A DNA stretch of 64,000 bases from Candidatus Moraniibacteriota bacterium (GTDB taxonomy: Bacteria > Patescibacteriota > Minisyncoccia > Moranbacterales > DUUL01), in assembly GCA_027008775.1 (NCBI GenBank), contig JALVDV010000001.1, positions 73,934 to 137,933 on the forward strand, given 5' to 3'. Of this stretch, positions 18,671 to 59,079 are shown in pieces (positions within the stretch are counted from its first letter, which is position 1; each line of letters opens with the position of its first letter). Both the position numbers and the translations under genes were made by a program. The notes below the pieces were generated by a model. It saw only the letters and a list, made by a program, of their open reading frames with translations. It was not told where the DNA came from and did no database searches.

Positions 18671-18902
18671 ATACTTGGTTTTTAATATCTGTAGAGATCT
18701 TAGCCTCCCCAAAGGTTTTTTACTAAATTTTTTTACTAAATTTCCCGAAAACGGGGCATTAAATTCTTGAACTGGTATTTTTACCAGCTTTTCAGCTAAA
18801 AATAAGTGTTTTTAAAAGAGAATATTACGACCCCACTGTCAAAACAAAAAGGTATTTTCTGGAGAAAAAAGCAACTACTACTCCATTTAACCCCAAAAGT
18901 AG

Positions 18903-18929
18903 CCACACCCCCTTGACAAAAAACAAAAA
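18903..18929 (+). promoter_or_regulatory. Promoter-like module P1 (TTGACA-15-TAGAAT)
   Basis: CCCCTTGACAAAAAAC...GCTAGAATGACGCGTCAAGG. Shares a ~20-nt upstream and ~10-nt downstream context with P2. Confidence 0.4.
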
Positions 18930-19393: not shown

Positions 19394-19838
19394 AAAAATT
19401 GCGGGAGAAAATAGCGGAGGAGAGAGATAAAGTTTGGGACAGAAGTAATTTTAATAATTGGTCCCAAAACTCATCTTCGCTATTTTCTTCCGACAAGGAG
19501 GAAAATAGTTTTTTGATATTGTAAAAATATCACAAAATAAAATTGTCGTTTTGAATAACTTAGAGCCAAATTTTGGAGAGAGATGTTATTCAAGACCGAC
19601 AATTATCTTAGATGGAATAAAACTTCTCCGACAAACAACGCTTTGCCGAGAAGACATTGCCCTAACGGTAATGTTGTCAACCGAATATTTTTTAGACCCG
19701 AAGCGGAGTAAAAAATATTCCTACGACACTTCCATCACCCGTTCTCGCAAGGAGATCGGCCGAGCGTGAGGACTAACCACCCTGGCGCTCGGGAATTTCC
19801 TTGCGAAAGGAAAAAGTTGTTCTTTGAAATACCGCTAA

Positions 19839-19880
19839 CGCGGTCGCAGAAAGTCGCAGACTAAACGCAGACTAACGCGG
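19839..19880. repeat. Direct-repeat block CGCGGTCGCAGAAAGTCGCAGACTAAACGCAGACTAACGCGG (left copy)
   Basis: Shares CGGTCGCAGAAA and reiterated CGCAGAC/ACGCAGA units with a block at 21676-21737. The two blocks bracket the GC-rich ORF. Confidence 0.5.
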
Positions 19881-20155
19881 AAGAATTATGTAATAGTTCT
19901 TTGAAAAAATCCCATTTTCTTTGTCTCCATTTCATCTCCTTAATGGCCAACCTCCCCAACCCAACCTTTTTCGAGTGGTTTTTGGGACAGCAATTTCAAA
20001 AAAATTGCCACCCCAAAAACCGCTCGGAAGAGTGGGAAAAATAGGGAAAAGGGATTGTGAACATGCTCCACAATTCCTGATTCAGCAGGATGGTCCTGTT
20101 GGACAAAAAAATTACCGCGCTACCGACGGTCAAAATATCGGAGAAGGAGAAAAAA

Positions 20156-21450
20156 TGAGAAGACATCAGATCAACATTACAAGCATTACCGGACTGAATA
20201 CTAGGGGCCTCTCCTCTGAGGAGGTGAGAGAGGTTGTGGAATGGAAGGAGATAGTCAACGCTGGGCAAATTCCCATAGATTGGAAGCCCAGCTGGGACAG
20301 AGCCGGGCTTGAGGAACTCGTAGACTCCGCAAAGGAGTATTACGAGGAAAGAACGGGATTAATCCTACCACATAACCTCGCGGTTCACGGCCCCTGGGTC
20401 GGTCATCCTAATGGTTACAAATTATATGAGGGTGACCGGTTCGACTCTGCTCCGGCAGAAGAAATGGTCAGCATTGCTGCTCGCTTTGCGAGCTGGCTAA
20501 AAATTATTGCTGACCAGAAATTGGTTGGTCTCCAGCGGTTGCTGGAGAAAAATTTAAGTTCAAGGGGGATGAACTCCCCACGAACAAAAATCGATCCGTA
20601 CCGTTTGCTACGTGTTTGGAGTTCTCCGCACACTGCGGAGAAAATGTTCTGGAAGTCCTATAAAAGGGCGTGGCAGATTCTCAAGCCCTTTGGGCTTGCT
20701 CCAAGCTGGAAAGCTGTTGGGCAGGTTATGACCAATTGGCATTCCTATCGTGTTGGCAAGATGGCATTTATCATTGCTGCTCGGACAGTGAACCAAATTT
20801 TGTCTCTTAAAGTGAACCGGGAATTTACCGGTAAGTCAATCAAAATTTTGGAGAAATCCAGAGGAATCGGTCAATTTGTCAATGATGGTGATTATGCGAT
20901 CTTGGCATGGGCGGTGGATCGAATTGAGACTGGAGAATTTTCTTGTATTCGCGAGGCAATTGCGAATGCAGGTCGGCTGGAATGGGATAAAACAGATGGT
21001 GTCGGTTTATGGATCGACCCGAGCTTAACGAAAGAAATCCACCGTGTAGAAGTTATACACGGATGGGATAGACAAGGATGGTTTTATTTCCTTCTCCGCC
21101 AGAAAGGAACCGGGCGGAGTTACCACTTCAGGCCATGGAAACATACAGCTCGTGAAGCTGTAAAATTCGCCATCGGTGAATGGCACAAACAGGTCAGAGC
21201 GGAGCGCAAAAAACGTAACATCCTTAAGGTTCTTCAGCCGAAGAATGCATCCGTTCTGGTTTGGATCCAGGATTCTCTGGATTCTGGGAATTGTTATATT
21301 GGAACGAGAGCTTGGTCTGAACGCAACGGTTTCAACGGGGCTATGTTTGCCCCTGCGGAGAAACTCCTAAAGTTCGCAGATGATTTGCGTGTCTTCCGGG
21401 TTCTCCAGACGGTGGCCGAAAAGGTTGCTGAGTTGAAACTTAAATATTGA
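20156..21450 (+). CDS. Hypothetical protein, ORFan of visibly higher GC than surrounding genes (431 aa from internal ATG with GGAGAAGGAG RBS)
   Basis: Long ORF; the track start at 19921 has no RBS and lies in non-coding-looking sequence. The ATG at 20156 is preceded by GGAGAAGGAGAAAAA. No RT (YxDD), TnpB or HUH motifs were found. GC-rich codon usage is atypical for this window. Confidence 0.55.
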
Positions 21451-21455
21451 ATCTC

Positions 21456-21502
21456 TCACCCGCCACGCCGGGTGATACAAAAATTTTTTTAGTTCTTTTT
21501 TT
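21456..21502 (+). terminator. Probable terminator after the ORFan
   Basis: TCACCCG-CCACGC-CGGGTGA hairpin followed by TACAAAAATTTTTTTAGTTCTTTTTTT. Confidence 0.45.
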
Positions 21503-21675
21503 AGAAATTTCTAATTTCCTCCGGGGCGTGGACTGTGGGAATAGGTTTCCGGGAGCAAGTTGTGTGGTTTACAACCTCTGCTCCCACCATTTCTTGAAAT
21601 CGGAAAATGATAAAACATTTTGCGGTTTCAAATAGATGGTTTCTTTTTCTACTAGCACGGTCGCAGAAAAATGCC

Positions 21676-21737
21676 GACCTTACACAGACTGACGCAGAAA
21701 GACACAGACACACACGGAACCAATAAAATAAACAAAC
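21676..21737. repeat. Direct-repeat block CACGGTCGCAGAAAAATGCCGACC...GACGCAGAAAGACACAGACACACACGG (right copy)
   Basis: See 19839-19880; same CGGTCGCAGAAA core and CGCAGA/CACAGAC reiterations. Confidence 0.5.
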
Positions 21738-21884
21738 TAAAAAATTAACAAATCAAATCGCTACAAGCTCGCAGGGCAGAAAAGGTGGTGAGCAAATTCT
21801 TTATCTCTCTCCAAGAATAATTCACTTATGCCTTTTGCTTATTACCCTGCGAACTTGTGGCGATTTCTTAATCCAGCGAGAATT

Positions 21885-21904
21885 CCCCGCCTGTAAGGGC
21901 GGGG
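21885..21904. repeat. Solo GC-rich hairpin CCCCGCC-TGTAAG-GGCGGGG (REP-like, or tnpA-less derivative of the IS200-like element at 53.5 kb)
   Basis: Exact reverse complement of the hairpins at 53533-53552 and 54028-54047. Its flanks (ATAGATAC on one side, ARTTCTCGCTG on the other, after reverse-complementing) match the outer flanks of the left and right hairpins of that element. Confidence 0.7.
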
Positions 21905-21996
21905 GTATCTATTTCAACCAGACAAATCCCTTTTGTGAAAATGATGCCCAACACCAAAAACTTTTTCTCTCGCCAAGACAAAACCGGCGCAACTCT

Positions 21997-28148: not shown

Positions 28149-28176
28149 ATTATGATATTATCAATAATATCATAAT
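28149..28176. repeat. 28-bp palindromic repeat ATTATGATATTAT-CA-ATAATATCATAAT, copy 1
   Basis: 13-nt arms are exact reverse complements around a 2-nt centre. One of 4 exact copies in the window. Confidence 0.85.
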
Positions 28177-28204
28177 AAAAGCTTCAACAACAGCAGGATT
28201 GGGT

Positions 28205-28232
28205 ATTATGATATTATTGATAATATCATAAT
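28205..28232. repeat. 28-bp palindromic repeat, copy 2 (opposite orientation, centre TG)
   Basis: ATTATGATATTATTGATAATATCATAAT, 28 bp after copy 1, ~210 bp upstream of ruvA. Confidence 0.85.
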
Positions 28233-50914: not shown

Positions 50915-50942
50915 ATTATGATATTATCAATAATATCATAAT
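50915..50942. repeat. 28-bp palindromic repeat, copy 3
   Basis: ATTATGATATTATCAATAATATCATAAT, exact. Confidence 0.85.
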
Positions 50943-52560: not shown

Positions 52561-52577
52561 AACACTCTTTAACCTCT

Positions 52578-52613
52578 TACTATCATATAAGGTTGTGTAG
52601 TTGTATGATAGTA
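52578..52613. repeat. 36-bp hairpin repeat TACTATCATA-TAAGGTTGTGTAGTTG-TATGATAGTA, copy 1
   Basis: 10-bp exact inverted arms with a 16-nt loop. One of 4 identical copies (also at 56697, 58280, 59044). Confidence 0.85.
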
Positions 52614-53379: not shown

Positions 53380-53524
53380 ATAGTTTTAAAATTTATAAAG
53401 TTATCCATTTTTACCCCAAAATTCACTCTTTGCTTTTCTATAATTTTGATACGGCTTACCTTGATGCTCTTTTTTTAACAAATTGAAATCTTGTCTGGCA
53501 CATTCGTCTTTCTTTAAAATCTCC

Positions 53525-54058
53525 ATAGATACCCCCGCCCTTACAGGCGGGGTTCTTTTTATATTACAAGCTGCGCTTGTCCCGCATCTTCCTCGCCTTG
53601 TTTACGGACATATTCTTGAATTATTTTTTCATTGATACCGACAGTGGATACAAAATATCCTTTTGACCATATTCCTTTGTTGTCCCAATACACTTTTTTG
53701 AGAAACTTGAATTTGTTTTTTAAGCTTCTGCCAGTGTTGGATTTTATTGTTTCCACAACTTTACTTATGGCATATTTGGGGGGAATTATCATATGTAGAT
53801 GAATATGGTCTTTGTCGATTCCCATTTCAATATAAATCCGGTCCGGATAATATTTATTCACTTCTTGGAGTTTTATACGGAGACAGGAATCAACTCCTTT
53901 GACCAGTATTTTCCTTCTGTATCTGGTTGGCCACACTATGTGATATTGGGTTCCGTATACACTATGGTTTGCTTTGTATAGTTTCATATCCTCCATTATA
54001 CAGGAAGATGCGGGATTTGGCTCTCATCCCCGCCCTTACAGGCGGGGAGTTCTCGCTG
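53525..54058 (-). mobile_element. IS200-like element (tnpA only) bounded by direct-repeat GC hairpins and internal inverted repeats
   Basis: CCCCGCC-CTTACA-GGCGGGG occurs at 53533-53552 and 54028-54047 in the same orientation. Subterminal inverted repeats TCCCGCATCTTCC (53581-93) and GGAAGATGCGGGA (54003-15). The GC-rich ends contrast with the AT-rich host sequence. Confidence 0.8.
53559..53996 (-). CDS. tnpA: IS200/IS605-family Y1 (HUH) transposase TnpA
   Basis: YHIVWPTRYRRKIL, HUH motif HIHLHMI, and catalytic-Tyr region GYFVSTVG; 145 aa, typical of IS200 TnpA. Confidence 0.9.
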   Translation of the reverse strand: MEDMKLYKANHSVYGTQYHIVWPTRYRRKILVKGVDSCLRIKLQEVNKYYPDRIYIEMGIDKDHIHLHMIIPPKYAISKVVETIKSNTGRSLKNKFKFLKKVYWDNKGIWSKGYFVSTVGINEKIIQEYVRKQGEEDAGQAQLVI

Positions 54059-54413
54059 AATTAAATATATGAAACTCATCAAAACGAGAATCTTTAATAA
54101 CCAGCATGATATCAACAGATTCTAAATCAGGTGGAATATTTTTTTCTTTGAATATCGCCAACCCCTCATTCTTACCAACAACCCAGACGTCCTCATGTTC
54201 GGCAACAAATACTTCTTTAAACTTTTCTATCGCTGATTGGAAATCACTTCCTCGCACTCGCACGGTTATATCCAAATCTTTTTTGGTTAACATTCCGGAA
54301 ACCGCCGAACTACCCACATGTTCAACTTCCGCCTCCGGTACCAATTCTAAGATTTTGTTTTTTATTTTTGCATATTCCGCCTCAATCACTTCTTTGCATA
54401 AGATGAGATACAT
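54036..54413 (-). CDS. GrpB-family protein (UPF0157, nucleotidyltransferase-like)
   Basis: VEHVGSSAVSGMLTKKDLDITV matches the GrpB motif HVGSTAVPGL.AKPIIDI. Start at internal ATG (MYLILCKE). Confidence 0.6.
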   Translation of the reverse strand: MYLILCKEVIEAEYAKIKNKILELVPEAEVEHVGSSAVSGMLTKKDLDITVRVRGSDFQSAIEKFKEVFVAEHEDVWVVGKNEGLAIFKEKNIPPDLESVDIMLVIKDSRFDEFHIFNSARTPRL

Positions 54414-54461
54414 CTTGGACACCCCTAAAAAAGATATTATGCTAAAAAAGGTTAACCAATA

Positions 54462-55532
54462 ATGTATCTCAAAAAAATGAAAACCAAACAAGTGGGATAT
54501 TATCTGATTCCCAATATTAAAATATCCAAAACAAAATACATTCGTTGGAAAAAGATAGCTAAAACATTAAATCTATCCCAGAAAGCCAGACAAAGATTGG
54601 ATTGGATAATATACTATTACACCAAAGCCAATCAGAACGCCTCTCTAACTTGCAAGCACTTTGGTATTAGCAGATCCAAATGGTATTTCTGGATAAATAA
54701 GTTTGCTGAAACCAACTTGAGAACTCTAGAAAATAATCCCACAGTTCCTTTTAAAAAAAGAGAAAAAGAATACACTGATTTACAATATGAAAGAGTGGTA
54801 AAATTAAGAAGACAATTTATCAAATACGGAAAGGTAAAACTGCTTAAAAAATATCAATCATTATACCCGGAGGATAAAAACATCAGCCAATGGAAGATTC
54901 AATGTATTATTCAAGTATCAGGAATCTATTATCACCCTAAAAAAGCCTTTAAAACGGCTAATAAACGAAGAAAAGCCATTCAGAAGAAAAAGATAACCGA
55001 ATTGAAAAAGAAACCTAAGAGTGGTTATCTAATAGCTTTGGATACAATTGTTAGAATAATCAACGGTCAAAGAAGATATATCATCACCGCCATAGACACT
55101 TATTCCAAAATAGCTTATGCCAGAATGTATAGTTCTCACAGTTCAATACAAGCTGAAGATTTTTTAATGAGATTAAATTATCTCCTAAATGGCAAGATGG
55201 AAAACATTCTAACCGATAATGGCTCAGAGTTTCAAAAACATTTTGAAAAAGCTTGTCAAAGATTAAACTTAAAGAGATACTACAGCCGAGTGAGACAACC
55301 TAAGGATAATCCCGTTTGTGAAAGATTTAACAGAACTTTAAATGAAGAATTCATCCAATTGGGCAATTTAACAACAGATGTAAAAACTTTTAACAGTAAT
55401 TTAACTGATTGGTTGATTGAATACAACTTTCACAGACCTCATCAAGCTTTGGATTATATGACTCCTATAGAATTTACTCAAAAATATGCCAAAGTGTCCA
55501 AGAGGTGGTCATCTAATACATTCTTTGATTGA
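54462..55532 (+). CDS. DDE-type integrase/transposase (rve core; IS481/IS3-like) with N-terminal HTH
   Basis: rve-core features: ALDTIVRIINGQRRYIITAIDTYSK...LTDNGSEF (second D)...NPVCERFNRTLNEE (E)...HRPHQAL. Confidence 0.85.
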   Translation: MYLKKMKTKQVGYYLIPNIKISKTKYIRWKKIAKTLNLSQKARQRLDWIIYYYTKANQNASLTCKHFGISRSKWYFWINKFAETNLRTLENNPTVPFKKREKEYTDLQYERVVKLRRQFIKYGKVKLLKKYQSLYPEDKNISQWKIQCIIQVSGIYYHPKKAFKTANKRRKAIQKKKITELKKKPKSGYLIALDTIVRIINGQRRYIITAIDTYSKIAYARMYSSHSSIQAEDFLMRLNYLLNGKMENILTDNGSEFQKHFEKACQRLNLKRYYSRVRQPKDNPVCERFNRTLNEEFIQLGNLTTDVKTFNSNLTDWLIEYNFHRPHQALDYMTPIEFTQKYAKVSKRWSSNTFFD

Positions 55533-55611: not shown

Positions 55612-55639
55612 ATTATGATATTATCAATAATATCATAAT
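55612..55639. repeat. 28-bp palindromic repeat, copy 4
   Basis: ATTATGATATTATCAATAATATCATAAT, exact. Lies 80 bp after the transposase stop, between convergent genes. Confidence 0.85.
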
Positions 55640-55667
55640 ACTCAAATATTTTTCAAATTTGCAATTA

Positions 55668-56558
55668 TCAAATTTTAATCATCTCCAACAACAATTTCTT
55701 CTTTTCCTCCAAATCTCCTTTGATATATTCTACCTGATGAAACAAAATATCCCAACCCAACAAACCGATGGCTCTATTTGCCAAAACCAATTTAACCTCC
55801 TCTCGGTTTTCGTTAGGTAAATATTTGTTCAACCAGTCAGAAATTTTATTATAAAATTCCTGAGTATTTTTTGTTTTTAAGAAAGCAAAATCAATCGCTC
55901 GCAAAAAATCATAATAGCCCCGCCCGACTCGTGGAACAATATTTAAATCCAACAAATATAATTCTTCACCGGAAACAATAATATGATCGCCAATAATATT
56001 ACCGTGCGCCCAACCGAAAAACTCTTCTTCTTTTTCATTAATCACGGTTTGCATTTTATCGGCAATATTTTTAATGTCATCATACCGCAACAAACCAGCT
56101 TCCACAATCGGTCCGCCCCAAGTCAAAATAGAACCCATCGTCCACCTTTCACCGTCTTTTCGCAAATCACCCACCCTTTCCGCTTGCAATAATCTATCAA
56201 TAACCTTTTGATAATCATCGGCTATTCTTTTGCTTTGTTCAATGACCCAATCCGGATTTCCATCAATAAACTCATTCAGACTATCTCCGGCAATTTCTTC
56301 CATTAAAATCATTTCTTTGTCCGCTTTAATGATTGTCGGAACCTTAAAACTCAATTCCCTTTCCATTTCTTTGGCGATTTCAAAAAGTTTTGTTTGTTGC
56401 GGTTCAATTCTTTCCGTTTTTAAAATATATTTTTTACCGGTCTTGTCTTCAACCCGAGCAACACCGGATTTATTCCGGAAAAACCCCTTTTCCACAACTC
56501 GCAAATCATTTTCTCGCGCAATTTGCTCAACTGTTTTTTTCTTGGTTTTTGATGACAT
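55668..56558 (-). CDS. Phosphotransferase enzyme family protein (APH/choline-kinase-like kinase fold)
   Basis: Kinase-fold catalytic loop WAHGNIIGDHIIV (cf. APH HGDLHPGN) and LLDLN (DFG-equivalent D); size 296 aa. Confidence 0.6.
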   Translation of the reverse strand: MSSKTKKKTVEQIARENDLRVVEKGFFRNKSGVARVEDKTGKKYILKTERIEPQQTKLFEIAKEMERELSFKVPTIIKADKEMILMEEIAGDSLNEFIDGNPDWVIEQSKRIADDYQKVIDRLLQAERVGDLRKDGERWTMGSILTWGGPIVEAGLLRYDDIKNIADKMQTVINEKEEEFFGWAHGNIIGDHIIVSGEELYLLDLNIVPRVGRGYYDFLRAIDFAFLKTKNTQEFYNKISDWLNKYLPNENREEVKLVLANRAIGLLGWDILFHQVEYIKGDLEEKKKLLLEMIKI

Positions 56559-56696
56559 AATTTTAAGACTTAATAATTAACTATCTAATAATTAACCATT
56601 GTAGGTCATAAACAATTAGCGTAAACATATTTTACCCCGCAACACTCTCCAACCCTATATCACCACCCCATAACACCACACGACCACACAATCCAA

Positions 56697-56732
56697 TACT
56701 ATCATATAAGGTTGTGTAGTTGTATGATAGTA
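56697..56732. repeat. 36-bp hairpin repeat, copy 2
   Basis: Identical to 52578-52613. Confidence 0.85.
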
Positions 56733-57962: not shown

Positions 57963-58279
57963 AGTAATTATTTTTACCTATTCCTACCTTCTGCCATATA
58001 TATATTCTTATTTTATTTTGAATAGATATTCCATTTCTACAGGAAAGAAATGTTCGCCGGTTAAATCTTATCGCATTTTGTTTTTTATTACAAAACATCA
58101 TGCTAATTTTCAAAATCACTCAAAAAATCTAAAACTTTCTTCTTTCAAATTTTTTATATCCCAAACCTCTACATCCTAAGCTCATATTCAAACCTCCATA
58201 TGCTAACCTCACGTTTAAATTCACAATTTACAACCATCCAGCCACAGCTATTCATAACTCACAAAATCATCAAACCACT

Positions 58280-58315
58280 TACTATCATATAAGGTTGTGT
58301 AGTTGTATGATAGTA
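58280..58315. repeat. 36-bp hairpin repeat, copy 3
   Basis: Identical; 53 bp downstream of the TrpR-like gene stop. Confidence 0.85.
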
Positions 58316-58790: not shown

Positions 58791-59043
58791 ATTATTATTT
58801 CTATTGTTAAATAATTATCAATCTAAATTAAATGGATACAAAGCAATTCAAACAAATACAAACAAAGCAAATACGGATAAATAACAATGATATGATAAAA
58901 ACATAATAAAGATACAATAAAAAATAGTCAAAAATGAAAGTAAAACAAAATAAAGTAAAATTAAAACAAAATAAAGTAAAACAAAGTAAGACAAAAATAA
59001 AAATAAACAAATAGACAACCCCAATATTTTACTATTATAACCT

Positions 59044-59079
59044 TACTATCATATAAGGTTGTGTAGTTGTATGATAGTA
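59044..59079. repeat. 36-bp hairpin repeat, copy 4
   Basis: Identical. Confidence 0.85.

What the first reader, a model, noticed from the sequence alone, without database searches (positions are those of the whole stretch)
53525..54058. IS200-like tnpA cassette flanked by identical direct-repeat GC hairpins; solo hairpin at 21885 carries both outer flanks (tnpA-less derivative or REP-like target)
The 20-bp hairpin CCCCGCCCTTACAGGCGGGG is present on both sides of tnpA in the same orientation. Inverted subterminal repeats (TCCCGCATCTTCC / GGAAGATGCGGGA) lie just inside the hairpins. The solo copy at 21885-21904 (opposite strand), once reverse-complemented, reads ATAGATAC-hairpin-AATTCTCGCTG. 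This matches the left flank of the left hairpin (ATAGATAC) and the right flank of the right hairpin (AGTTCTCGCTG). That is the pattern expected either for a miniature tnpA-less derivative formed by recombination between the two hairpins, or for a REP-like unit that served as the IS200 insertion target. These GC-rich hairpins are foreign-looking in an AT-rich genome.
Basis: seen in the sequence. Interest (0 to 1): 0.6.

Follow-up and report, generated by a model that had tools for sequence, protein, structure and literature searches.

The report
Tiny IS200 transposon and one-hairpin remnant
A very small jumping gene of the well-known IS200 family has landed inside a host gene, and a 41-base unit made only of its two tips and one hairpin sits elsewhere in the genome. 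This is ordinary transposon biology, with a neat miniature by-product.

Summary
The 20-mer CCCCGCCCTTACAGGCGGGG occurs three times, where none is expected by chance. It brackets a genuine IS200-type tnpA.

The hairpins are not external flanks or a REP-like target. They are the subterminal transposase-binding hairpins of a 536-bp IS200-group element (window 53525-54060). A relative with an intact grpB gene shows a clean empty site. The element inserted 3' of TTTAA with no target duplication.

The same hairpin and outer termini form the ends of a family found across many phyla. A target base covaries with a guide base, as in IS608. A 14-bp long-range stem also covaries.

The solo copy is a precise 41-bp insertion (21872-21912). 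It consists of the 13-nt left terminus, one hairpin and the 8-nt right terminus. It also sits 3' of a TTTAA-type site that is empty in two related assemblies. Six more such one-hairpin units exist at unrelated metagenomic sites.

The most likely origin is deletion between the two identical hairpins of a full copy. Mobilisation of the unit in trans is not excluded.

There is no RAYT and no high copy number. I rate it a new member of a known kind, of modest interest.

The parts
53525..54060 (-). Complete IS200-group insertion sequence, 536 bp. The tnpA-sense (top) strand is the window minus strand.
   Evidence: Compared with the relative L070, which has an intact grpB. Empty site...CATATATTTAA|GGAAATTTT. 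Occupied site...CATATATTTAA|TTCAGCG...GTATCTAT|GGAGATTTT. There is no duplication. Two further copies, 98-99% identical and with the same ends, lie at other sites (L087, L088).
54061..54065 (-). Target pentanucleotide TTTAA, 5' of the left end. It is flank, not part of the element.
   Evidence: TTTAA or TCTAA directly precedes the left end in every family member with a readable flank. It is retained in the empty site of L070.
54048..54060 (-). Left-end outer segment TTCAGCGAGAACT (13 nt). Its last 4 nt, AACT, are the presumed guide sequence 5' of the hairpin foot.
   Evidence: The consensus NNNAGCGRGARNT is conserved across phyla. The second guide base covaries with the second target base: AA.. 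with TTTAA, and AG.. with TCTAA.
54028..54047 (-). Left-end subterminal hairpin: 7-bp GC stem and 6-nt loop.
   Evidence: One stem pair shows a compensatory change in relatives (G-C to A-T in L030).
54002..54015 (-). Left arm of the 14-bp long-range stem (TCCCGCATCTTCCT on the top strand), 12 nt inside the left hairpin and upstream of the tnpA start.
   Evidence: Of 14 pairs, 8 change on both sides across 6 elements, and 94% of cells are paired against about 47% when the partners are slid.
53559..53987 (-). tnpA, a Y1 (HUH) transposase of 142 aa. An upstream in-frame ATG at 53996 would give 145 aa.
   Evidence: Pfam PF01797. NCBIfam NF033573. IS608 TnpA 2a6m at E=3e-23, with the HUH motif (HIHLH) and the catalytic Tyr (IQEYVRKQ) aligned. 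Most of the 2726 homologues are 142 aa.
53580..53593 (-). Right arm of the long-range stem (AGGAAGATGCGGGA on the top strand), inside the last codons of tnpA.
53567..53579 (-). Small conserved hairpin CAAGCGCAGCTTG, next to the right arm and within the tnpA 3' end.
   Evidence: Predicted in the ssDNA fold. Conserved in the family; L027 has a shifted variant (ACAGCGAAGCTGT). The support is weak: the 3 inner pairs are invariant and no pair changes on both sides.
53533..53552 (-). Right-end subterminal hairpin, identical to the left one. On the window plus strand it is followed by TTCTTTTT, which looks like a terminator for antisense transcription.
   Evidence: A compensatory variant is seen in L003.
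53525..53532 (-). Right-end outer segment GTATCTAT (8 nt). The element ends after CTAT.
   Evidence: Empty-site comparison. Family consensus NNNTYYAY.
21872..21912 (+). One-hairpin derivative ('solo'), 41 bp: left terminus TCCAGCGAGAATT, hairpin (21885-21904), right terminus GTATCTAT. Preceded by CTTAA (21867-21871).
   Evidence: Relatives L073 and L075 read ...GGCGATTTTTTAA|TTCAATCAGAC. The window reads ...GGCGATTTCTTAA|[41 bp]|TTCAACCAGAC. The boundary has a 1-nt ambiguity. Six analogous units lie at unrelated loci.
53401..53524 (-). 3' fragment of the interrupted grpB gene (context).
   Evidence: Continuous with 54061-54396 in the relative L070, whose GrpB is 166 aa. The upstream fragment hits Pfam GrpB.
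54061..54396 (-). Middle fragment of the interrupted grpB gene (context), between the IS200-type and the IS481-type insertions.

Best explanation
Window 53525-54060 is a 536-bp insertion sequence of the IS200 group of the IS200/IS605 family. It sits in a Patescibacteria-like genome.

Structure. The element encodes one Y1/HUH transposase (TnpA). The two identical GC hairpins are its own left-end and right-end subterminal structures. They lie on the same (tnpA-sense) strand and are what a TnpA dimer would bind.

Inferred mechanism, by analogy with IS608. The top strand is cut 13 nt 5' of the left hairpin, directly after a flanking TTTAA. It is also cut 8 nt 3' of the right hairpin, after CTAT. 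The strand is excised as a single-stranded circle and pasted 3' of another TTTAA without duplication. The four bases 5' of each hairpin foot act as guides that pair with the cleavage or target site. A covarying 14-bp stem just inside the hairpins would bring the two ends together in single-stranded DNA.

The solo. The copy at 21872-21912 is derived from this IS family: left terminus, one hairpin and right terminus, at a TTTAA-type site. Most probably a full-length copy inserted there. It then lost everything between its two identical 20-bp hairpins by slipped-strand deletion, either at second-strand synthesis or later. That deletion would be favoured because the long-range stem places the two direct repeats side by side. 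On this reading the solo is a relic, comparable to a solo LTR, and not a REP or an insertion target.

Shown here: the boundaries, the target, the absence of duplication, the family-wide conservation, the covariation, and the empty sites. Inferred: the single-strand chemistry and the deletion route.
For: - Hairpins exact at three sites, none expected by chance.
- TnpA is an IS200-type Y1 transposase with HUH and Tyr aligned to IS608 TnpA.
- Empty grpB site in relative GCA_027038515.1 fixes the ends. It shows insertion after TTTAA with no duplication.
- Two more full copies with identical ends lie after TTTAA at other loci.
- The 20-mer scan of 185,579 species genomes gave 66 loci. About 45 of the roughly 70 hairpin occurrences in them are left or right ends of the same IS family, in Nitrospirota, Patescibacteria, Actinomycetes, Atribacterota, Kosmotogaceae and others. 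Many lie at contig ends.
- TTTAA pairs with guide AA.., and TCTAA with AG.., without exception among full-length and two-hairpin copies. This mirrors the IS608 guide/cleavage rule (PMC3201880).
- Structure counts for the hairpins and long stem: 96.5% of cells paired, 10 pairs changed on both sides, 0 of 500 shuffles reach this, and slid controls give about 47%.
- The ssDNA fold has z = -6.3 and shows exactly this architecture.
- The solo is a precise 41-bp insertion relative to two related assemblies.
- Six more solos lie at unrelated sites, 5 of 6 after TTTAA, and no two are identical.
- No further hairpin was found in about 82 kb of the source contig or in about 65 kb of relatives.
- Internal-deletion derivatives of other sizes exist in the family (L014, L007/L012/L016).
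Against: - The deletion route is not observed directly. No site was found that carries a full copy in one strain and a solo in another.
- At the window site the relatives are simply empty, so a one-step insertion of the 41-bp unit is more parsimonious than insertion followed by deletion.
- Seven independent one-hairpin units, all retaining both termini exactly, could also mean that the unit itself is a transposition substrate.
- The solo differs from the resident IS at 2 of 13 left-terminus positions, so the resident copy is not its immediate parent.
- Covariation at the right end (guide against CTAT/TCAT) is less clean than at the left end, and L010 is an exception.
- The structure statistics rest on only 6 elements.
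Confidence: 0.65

Rival explanations
1. The 41-bp one-hairpin unit is itself a minimal non-autonomous transposable element. TnpA supplied in trans by full copies cuts it after TTTAA and after CTAT and pastes it 3' of new TTTAA sites. It would be a proto-REP made of a single IS200 hairpin.
For: - Seven independent units have intact left and right termini, and 6 of the 7 sit at TTTAA-type targets; L081 is preceded by ATTCA.
- The relatives have a clean empty site, so a single event suffices.
- Two-hairpin tnpA-less minis of the same family are clearly mobile: three identical 111-nt copies with different flanks in one Syntrophaceae MAG.
- In some solos (L082, L083) the single guide AATT could pair with both TTTAA and TTCAT by the same rule. 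This is an inference.
- A related Y1 enzyme, TnpA-REP, acts on single REP hairpins (PMC3333891).
Against: - No amplification: one unit in about 82 kb of the source contig, none in relatives, and none among the family hits in 185,579 species genomes.
- No two solos are identical.
- The unit has lost the right-end guide (AGAA), the long-range stem and the small hairpin, all of which the mobile two-hairpin minis keep.
- In the window solo the only guide, AATT, mismatches the C of TCTAT.
- IS608-type TnpA works as a dimer that holds two hairpins (PMC3201880).
Confidence: 0.27
2. The hairpin unit is a native REP-like genomic repeat, and the IS200 element inserted into one such unit.
For: The solo unit carries the sequences that flank the IS hairpins on their outer sides. 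REPs resemble IS200/IS605 hairpins in general (PMC3333891).
Against: - The intact grpB allele has no hairpin at the insertion point.
- IS200/IS605 insertion makes no duplication, so it cannot produce two copies of a 20-bp target.
- The hairpin plus termini travel with tnpA in many phyla.
- The solo site itself is empty in relatives.
- There is no RAYT: the REP_Tyr_transpos model scores 27.6 bits against a cut-off of 80, and no second Y1 gene is present in the window.
- There is no GTAG motif, and the copy number is low.
Confidence: 0.02
3. The three hairpins are unrelated GC-rich intrinsic terminators that happen to be identical.
For: About 20 of the 66 genome hits are isolated hairpins with no family flanks, and some are followed by T-runs. 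The solo, and the right-end hairpin on the plus strand, are flagged as terminator-like.
Against: No matches are expected by chance in the window. The flanks are shared beyond the hairpin. The hairpins appear or vanish as precise insertions together with IS termini.
Confidence: 0.01

Closest known systems
IS608 (Helicobacter pylori), the mechanistic model of the IS200/IS605 family
   Same: - TnpA is homologous (E=3e-23, with HUH and catalytic Tyr aligned).
- Subterminal hairpins lie on one strand at both ends.
- Insertion is 3' of a short specific sequence with no gain or loss of DNA.
- A 4-nt guide 5' of the hairpin foot covaries with the target.
- The geometry is asymmetric: the cleavage site is 5' of the left hairpin and 3' of the right hairpin (PMC3201880).
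   Different: - No tnpB, and 536 bp instead of about 1.8 kb.
- The hairpins are perfect 7-bp GC stems and are identical at both ends. IS608 has imperfect palindromes.
- Distances are 13 and 8 nt instead of 19 and 10.
- The target is the pentanucleotide T(T/C)TAA instead of TTAC.
- There is a covarying 14-bp long-range stem that encloses tnpA.
IS200 of Salmonella / IS1541 (IS200 group)
   Same: A single tnpA of about 140-150 aa that hits the NCBIfam transpos_IS200 equivalog. The element is very small and has GC hairpins near its ends.
   Different: From my own knowledge, IS200 is about 700 bp. It has a left-end terminator hairpin plus an RNA stem that hides the ribosome-binding site. The element here is about 170 bp shorter, has identical hairpins at both ends, and has an end-to-end stem. 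No direct comparison with ISfinder entries could be run.
PATEs (palindrome-associated transposable elements), the MITE-like derivatives of IS200/IS605
   Same: Ends-only, transposase-less derivatives (PMC7290912). Genuine two-hairpin examples of this very family were found: L014, L007/L012/L016, and three identical copies in a Syntrophaceae MAG.
   Different: The window solo keeps only one hairpin, with both cleavage termini attached (41 bp). It has no sign of multiplication.
REP/BIME elements with RAYT (TnpA-REP)
   Same: A single extragenic hairpin of about 40 nt related to IS200/IS605 end structures, together with a Y1-family enzyme in the genome (PMC3333891).
   Different: - No conserved GTAG 5' of the foot.
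- A perfect stem.
- Low copy number.
- The enzyme is IS200-type, not RAYT.
- The unit is bounded by IS cleavage sites and a TTTAA target.
Solo LTRs and Tn10/Tn5 precise excision (deletion between direct repeats brought together by an inverted-repeat stem)
   Same: Proposed origin of the solo: two direct repeats (the 20-bp hairpins) bracket an inverted-repeat stem, a geometry known to promote slipped-strand deletion. This rests on my own knowledge of the classical work on spontaneous deletions and transposon precise excision.
   Different: The process was not shown here. The repeats here are themselves hairpins, and the template may be single-stranded at the time of insertion.

Membership tests
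IS200/IS605 family, IS200 group | Encodes a Y1 (single-tyrosine HUH) transposase, TnpA | tested here: met
   Pfam Y1_Tnp 97 bits against a cut-off of 23. NCBIfam transpos_IS200 114 bits against a cut-off of 55. IS608 TnpA 2a6m at E=3e-23, with HIHLH and the Tyr of IQEYVRKQ aligned to H64/H66 and Y127.
IS200/IS605 family, IS200 group | tnpA only, no tnpB | tested here: met
   The 536-bp element is defined by the empty site and holds a single ORF with family hits.
IS200/IS605 family, IS200 group | Subterminal hairpins at both ends on the same strand, and no terminal inverted repeats | tested here: met
   Hairpins start 13 nt from the left end and finish 8 nt from the right end, in direct orientation. 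The termini TTCAGCG... and ...GTATCTAT are not inverted repeats.
IS200/IS605 family, IS200 group | Inserts 3' of a specific tetra- or pentanucleotide without target-site duplication | tested here: met
   Empty against occupied sites for the IS and for the solo. TTTAA or TCTAA precedes the left end in all readable family members.
IS200/IS605 family, IS200 group | Cleavage and target sites are recognised by pairing with a 4-nt guide 5' of the hairpin foot | tested here: inconclusive
   The left end shows clean covariation: T-T-TAA with A-A-NT, and T-C-TAA with A-G-NT, with no exceptions among full or two-hairpin copies. The right end shows a similar trend (TCTAT with AG.A, TTCAT with GA.A) but has an exception (L010) and unclear registers. 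No biochemistry was done.
IS200/IS605 family, IS200 group | Strand-specific single-strand 'peel and paste' transposition through an ssDNA circle | not testable with these tools
   Inferred from homology to IS608 only. Replication direction could not be read reliably from GC skew.
PATE / MITE-like IS200/IS605 derivative (for the solo at 21872-21912) | Carries IS ends and no transposase gene | tested here: met
   The 41 bp comprise the 13-nt left terminus, the hairpin and the 8-nt right terminus.
PATE / MITE-like IS200/IS605 derivative (for the solo at 21872-21912) | Retains both subterminal palindromes (left and right) | tested here: not met
   Only one hairpin is present. The two-hairpin minis of the same family (L014, L035/L040/L066) show what a typical PATE looks like here.
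PATE / MITE-like IS200/IS605 derivative (for the solo at 21872-21912) | Multiple copies, mobilised in trans | tested here: inconclusive
   Seven independent sites are known overall. No identical copies were seen, and only one unit lies in about 82 kb of this genome.
REP / REPIN with RAYT | High copy number of extragenic palindromes in the genome | tested here: not met
   One solo in about 82 kb of the source contig and none in about 65 kb of two relatives, allowing up to 3 mismatches.
REP / REPIN with RAYT | Imperfect palindrome with a conserved GTAG 5' of its foot (E. coli type; PMC3333891) | tested here: not met
   The stem is a perfect 7 bp, and the bases 5' of the foot are GAAYT.
REP / REPIN with RAYT | Associated REP-associated tyrosine transposase (RAYT) | tested here: not met
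   REP_Tyr_transpos scores 27.6 bits against a cut-off of 80, while transpos_IS200 passes. tblastn finds no second Y1 gene in the window.

The most novel reading that the evidence does not exclude
The 41-bp unit (13-nt left terminus, one 20-nt hairpin, 8-nt right terminus) is itself moved in trans by an ordinary IS200-type TnpA. It would then be the smallest known transposable unit. It would also be a living intermediate between IS200 ends and REP elements. The covarying end-to-end stem would be a previously undescribed cis-acting aid to single-strand synapsis, one that also drives formation of such units.
Probability: 0.22. Interest if true: 0.7.

Novelty: new member of a known kind. Interest (0 to 1): 0.35.

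Why it matters
The practical result is a corrected annotation:
- Public gene calls truncate tnpA to 100 aa.
- grpB in this genome is a pseudogene hit by two different ISs.
- The GC hairpins are transposon ends, not host regulatory repeats.

For transposon biology there are three modest points. First, this is a widespread IS200 lineage of unusually small size (536 bp), with identical perfect hairpins, a T(T/C)TAA target and a guide base that covaries with it. The IS608 targeting rule therefore appears to hold far from Helicobacter. Second, a conserved, compensated stem ties the two ends together and overlaps the tnpA coding sequence, and two-hairpin minis retain it. This suggests a cis role in single-strand transposition. 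Third, recurrent one-hairpin units keep both cleavage termini. If these are mobile, they would give a concrete model for how REP-like elements arise from IS200/IS605 ends.

Tried and rejected
- Exact-sequence look-ups of TnpA (145 and 142 aa) and of the neighbouring rve transposase found nothing. The public gene calls use other starts; tnpA is called as 100 aa. I reached the source contig through neighbouring genes instead.
- The viral contig collection holds no copy of the hairpin.
- Extending the source contig by about 9 kb on each side found no further hairpin, with up to 3 mismatches allowed. Genome-wide copy number could therefore not be measured. The rest of the 152-kb contig and the other contigs of this genome were out of reach.
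The host was placed near Candidatus Moranbacteria only through GltX homologues at 59-65% identity.
- The RAYT idea was rejected.
- The REP-like target idea was rejected by the empty sites.
- I considered aberrant TnpA cleavage at pseudo-sites next to the 'wrong' hairpin as a source of solos. I rejected it because the sequences at the required distances (ATGAGAGC after the left hairpin, CTTGT 13 nt before the right hairpin) do not resemble the cleavage sites.
- Replication-strand orientation of the IS and the solo was not used. GC skew is negative throughout the window while gene orientation flips, so the fork direction is unclear.
- L088 looked like a polymorphic insertion next to window position 55667, but its two flanks map 37 kb apart in the window. 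I did not use it as an empty-site test.
- About 20 of the 66 genome hits are unrelated isolated hairpins and were set aside.
Full report
**1. Observation**

The 20-mer CCCCGCCCTTACAGGCGGGG is present exactly at 53533-53552 and 54028-54047 on the plus strand and at 21885-21904 on the minus strand. None is expected in shuffled sequence, even with three mismatches allowed. A looser stem pattern finds only these three sites.

Between the first two copies lies a minus-strand ORF (53559-53996). It is a Y1 transposase by three measures:
- Pfam Y1_Tnp at E=1e-27;
- NCBIfam transpos_IS200 at 114 bits against a cut-off of 55;
- IS608 TnpA (PDB 2a6m) at E=3e-23, with the HUH motif and the catalytic tyrosine aligned.

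Most of its 2726 homologues are 142 aa, so the second ATG (53987) is the likely start.

The flanks shared by the solo copy are reproducible: 8 of 8 on one side and 15 of 17 on the other.

**2. Source and relatives**

The window is part of ENA contig ERZ27262687:k141_497714 (152 kb). The same sequence is in a Logan assembly. The nearest named GltX homologues are Candidatus Moranbacteria at 59-65% identity, so the host is probably a member of the Patescibacteria.

Two related MAGs, 93-99% identical in the flanking DNA, supplied the decisive comparisons.

**3. Boundaries of the IS**

In GCA_027038515.1 the grpB gene is intact (166 aa) and reads ...CATATATTTAA|GGAAATTTTAAAG. In the window, on the tnpA-sense strand, the same place reads ...CATATATTTAA|TTCAGCGAGAACT-hairpin-...-hairpin-GTATCTAT|GGAGATTTTAAAG.

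The element is therefore 53525-54060 (536 bp). It includes both hairpins, made no target duplication, and lies directly 3' of TTTAA.

Two further copies from other samples (L087, L088) are 98-99% identical. They have exactly the same ends and also follow TTTAA.

**4. The hairpins are family-wide IS ends**

An exact-match scan of one genome per species (185,579 species) found the 20-mer in 66 loci. About 45 of the roughly 70 occurrences are ends of the same IS family:
- Left ends have the form T(T/C)TAA | NNNAGCGRGARNT-hairpin-RTGAGAGC.
- Right ends have the form ...CAAGCGNAGCTTG...-hairpin-NNNTYYAY | flank.

Hosts include Nitrospirota, several Patescibacteria, Actinomycetes, Atribacterota, Kosmotogaceae and others. 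The ends often lie about 50-130 nt from a contig end, as expected for a multicopy IS. The remaining 20 or so occurrences are unrelated isolated hairpins.

In some members the two hairpins differ by compensated changes. Examples are CCCCACCTGGCAGGGTGGGG at the left end of a Nitrospira copy and CCACGCC...GGCGTGG at the right end of L003.

**5. How it most likely works**

The anatomy maps onto IS608. There, TnpA binds a subterminal hairpin at each end. It cuts the top strand 3' of TTAC, 19 nt 5' of the left hairpin, and after TCAA, 10 nt 3' of the right hairpin. Four bases 5' of each hairpin foot act as guides that pair with the cleavage or target site. The element inserts without gain or loss of DNA (PMC3201880 and PMC3597680).

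Here the distances are 13 and 8 nt and the target is a pentanucleotide.

The guide rule is supported by covariation. Every copy preceded by TTTAA has AA as the first two guide bases. Every copy preceded by TCTAA has AG. The TCTAA group comprises Roizmanbacteria, Brennerbacteria, a Parcubacteria MAG and Nitrospira-type copies. No full or two-hairpin copy breaks the rule. At the right end a similar trend exists (TCTAT with AG.A, TTCAT with GA.A), but it is less clean.

The single-strand chemistry itself is inferred, not shown.

**6. A conserved end-to-end stem**

Twelve nucleotides inside the left hairpin, a 14-nt segment pairs with the last codons of tnpA. The position is conserved while the sequence changes on both sides:
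- TCCCGCATCTTCCT in the window;
- TCCTGCATCTTCT in L003;
- GTCCTGCATCGTGCT in L027;
- TCCGTTGTCTTC in L061;
- a 20-bp imperfect version in L030.

On an alignment of six elements, the four helices together have 96.5% of cells paired. Ten pairs change on both sides. None of 500 shuffles reaches the observed values, and slid controls give about 47%. The long stem alone has 8 of its 14 pairs changed on both sides.

The single-stranded DNA fold of the top strand (-72.3 kcal/mol, z = -6.3) shows four features: the left hairpin, the long stem enclosing tnpA, a small hairpin (CAAGCGCAGCTTG) and the right hairpin.

Two-hairpin, tnpA-less minis keep the stem. In L014 its arms are directly juxtaposed, and in L007/L012 both arms are retained.

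I infer a cis role: it brings the two ends together in single-stranded DNA. A role in RNA cannot be excluded. Six sequences are few, so this is supportive rather than conclusive.

**7. The solo copy**

Relatives GCA_026992875.1 and a Logan contig read ...GGCGATTTTTTAA|TTCAATCAGACAAATCCC. The window reads ...GGCGATTTCTTAA|TCCAGCGAGAATT-hairpin-GTATCTAT|TTCAACCAGACAAATCCC.

The solo is thus a precise 41-bp insertion (21872-21912, with a 1-nt ambiguity). It has the IS left terminus, one hairpin and the IS right terminus. It sits at the same type of target and made no duplication.

This refutes the REP-like target reading and supports the derivative reading.

A pattern specific for such units found six more in JGI metagenome contigs. 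All are at unrelated loci, and five of the six directly follow TTTAA. Three are in one metagenome. No two are identical.

None occurs among the family hits in the species-genome scan. No further hairpin occurs in about 82 kb of the source contig or in about 65 kb of the two relatives.

**8. Origin of the solo**

I favour deletion between the two identical 20-bp hairpins of a full copy, for these reasons:
- The repeats are perfect in this subfamily.
- They bracket an inverted-repeat stem that juxtaposes them. This geometry classically promotes slipped-strand deletion, as in precise excision of Tn10 (my own knowledge).
- Other internal-deletion derivatives exist in the family.
- Solos are rare and diverged.
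- The solo has lost the right-end guide, the stem and the small hairpin.

The deletion could even occur during second-strand synthesis across the folded inserted strand. That would make insertion and deletion effectively one event (speculation).

The rival is that the 41-bp unit is itself mobilised in trans. It remains possible, at about one in four:
- there are seven independent sites with intact termini;
- a one-step event is more parsimonious at the window site;
- two-hairpin minis of the family are clearly mobile, with three identical 111-nt copies in one Syntrophaceae MAG.

One oddity is unexplained. All five solos of the GTATCTAT subfamily differ from full copies in the first three bases after the left cleavage site. 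The numbers are small, and the search pattern constrained the other positions.

**9. Comparison with known kinds**

The element meets every testable criterion of the IS200 group of IS200/IS605.

It differs from IS608 and IS200 in several ways: its size (536 bp, which to my knowledge is below the usual 600-750 bp of the group), its perfect and identical hairpins, its target, and its end-to-end stem.

The solo is not a typical PATE, because it has one hairpin rather than two. It is not a REP either. It has no GTAG motif, a perfect stem and a low copy number. The transposase scores 27.6 bits against the RAYT cut-off of 80.

**10. Verdict**

This is a new member of a known kind, with a tidy one-hairpin derivative and a possibly new cis-acting stem. 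Interest is modest.

Noticed in passing
window 54397-55520 (transposase ORF 54462-55532): A second, unrelated IS interrupts the same grpB gene near its 5' end. It is an IS481-family (rve) element of about 1124 bp with a 7-bp duplication, CAAAGAA (54390-54396 and 55521-55527). It is absent from relative L070. The transposase scores below the NCBIfam IS481 cut-off (179 bits against 224).
   Followed up: partly
window 52571-52613, 56690-56732, 58273-58315, 59037-59079; also in L070: An AT-rich palindromic repeat of about 38-43 nt (TACTATCATATAAGGTTGTGTAGTTGTATGATAGTA) occurs four times in 7 kb and also in a related genome. This, not the GC hairpin, is the REP-like repeat of this genome.
   Followed up: no
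window 28149-28177, 28204-28232, 50915-50942, 55612-55639: A 28-nt perfect palindrome (ATTATGATATTATCAATAATATCATAAT) occurs four times, twice in tandem 55 nt apart. It could be an operator-like site or another small repeat family.
   Followed up: no
window 19835-21699: Imperfect 48-nt direct repeats (19835-19882 and 21652-21699, 75% identical) surround a 509-aa ORF that has no Pfam or NCBIfam hit, in a locally GC-rich (46%) stretch. Synteny with relative L073 breaks at about 21546, so this block may be an insertion. The solo lies 173 nt beyond the right repeat.
   Followed up: partly
L088 (ENA ERZ23491132 scaffold_452357), against window 55667-55747 and 18813-18906: A full IS copy has a left flank matching the end of the 296-aa gene at window 55.7 kb and a right flank matching window 18.8 kb. 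This is either an IS-mediated rearrangement in a related strain or a chimeric short-read assembly through the repeat.
   Followed up: partly
L035, L040, L066 (Syntrophaceae MAG L.E.D.62); L014 (Brennerbacteria); L007, L012, L016: These are two-hairpin, tnpA-less miniatures of the same IS family. There are three identical 111-nt copies with different flanks in one MAG, a mini of about 132 bp with the stem arms juxtaposed, and versions with the two hairpins about 160-170 nt apart that keep both stem arms.
   Followed up: partly
L005, L020, L033, L047 (Thermoplasmata and Methanomassiliicoccales MAGs): In these archaea the same 20-mer hairpin is followed by CATGCTGC-like sequence, sometimes as two copies 78-94 nt apart. 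It lacks the bacterial IS termini and may be the end of a different element family.
   Followed up: no
window 53559-53996; L069 4462-4764: Public gene calls for this contig truncate tnpA to 100 aa. They also split grpB into a 125-aa and a 41-aa ORF. Exact-sequence look-ups of the true TnpA therefore fail.
   Followed up: yes
window 53533-53562 (plus strand): On the strand antisense to tnpA, the right-end hairpin is followed by TTCTTTTTAT. It is scored as terminator-like and could block transcription entering the IS from that side.
   Followed up: no
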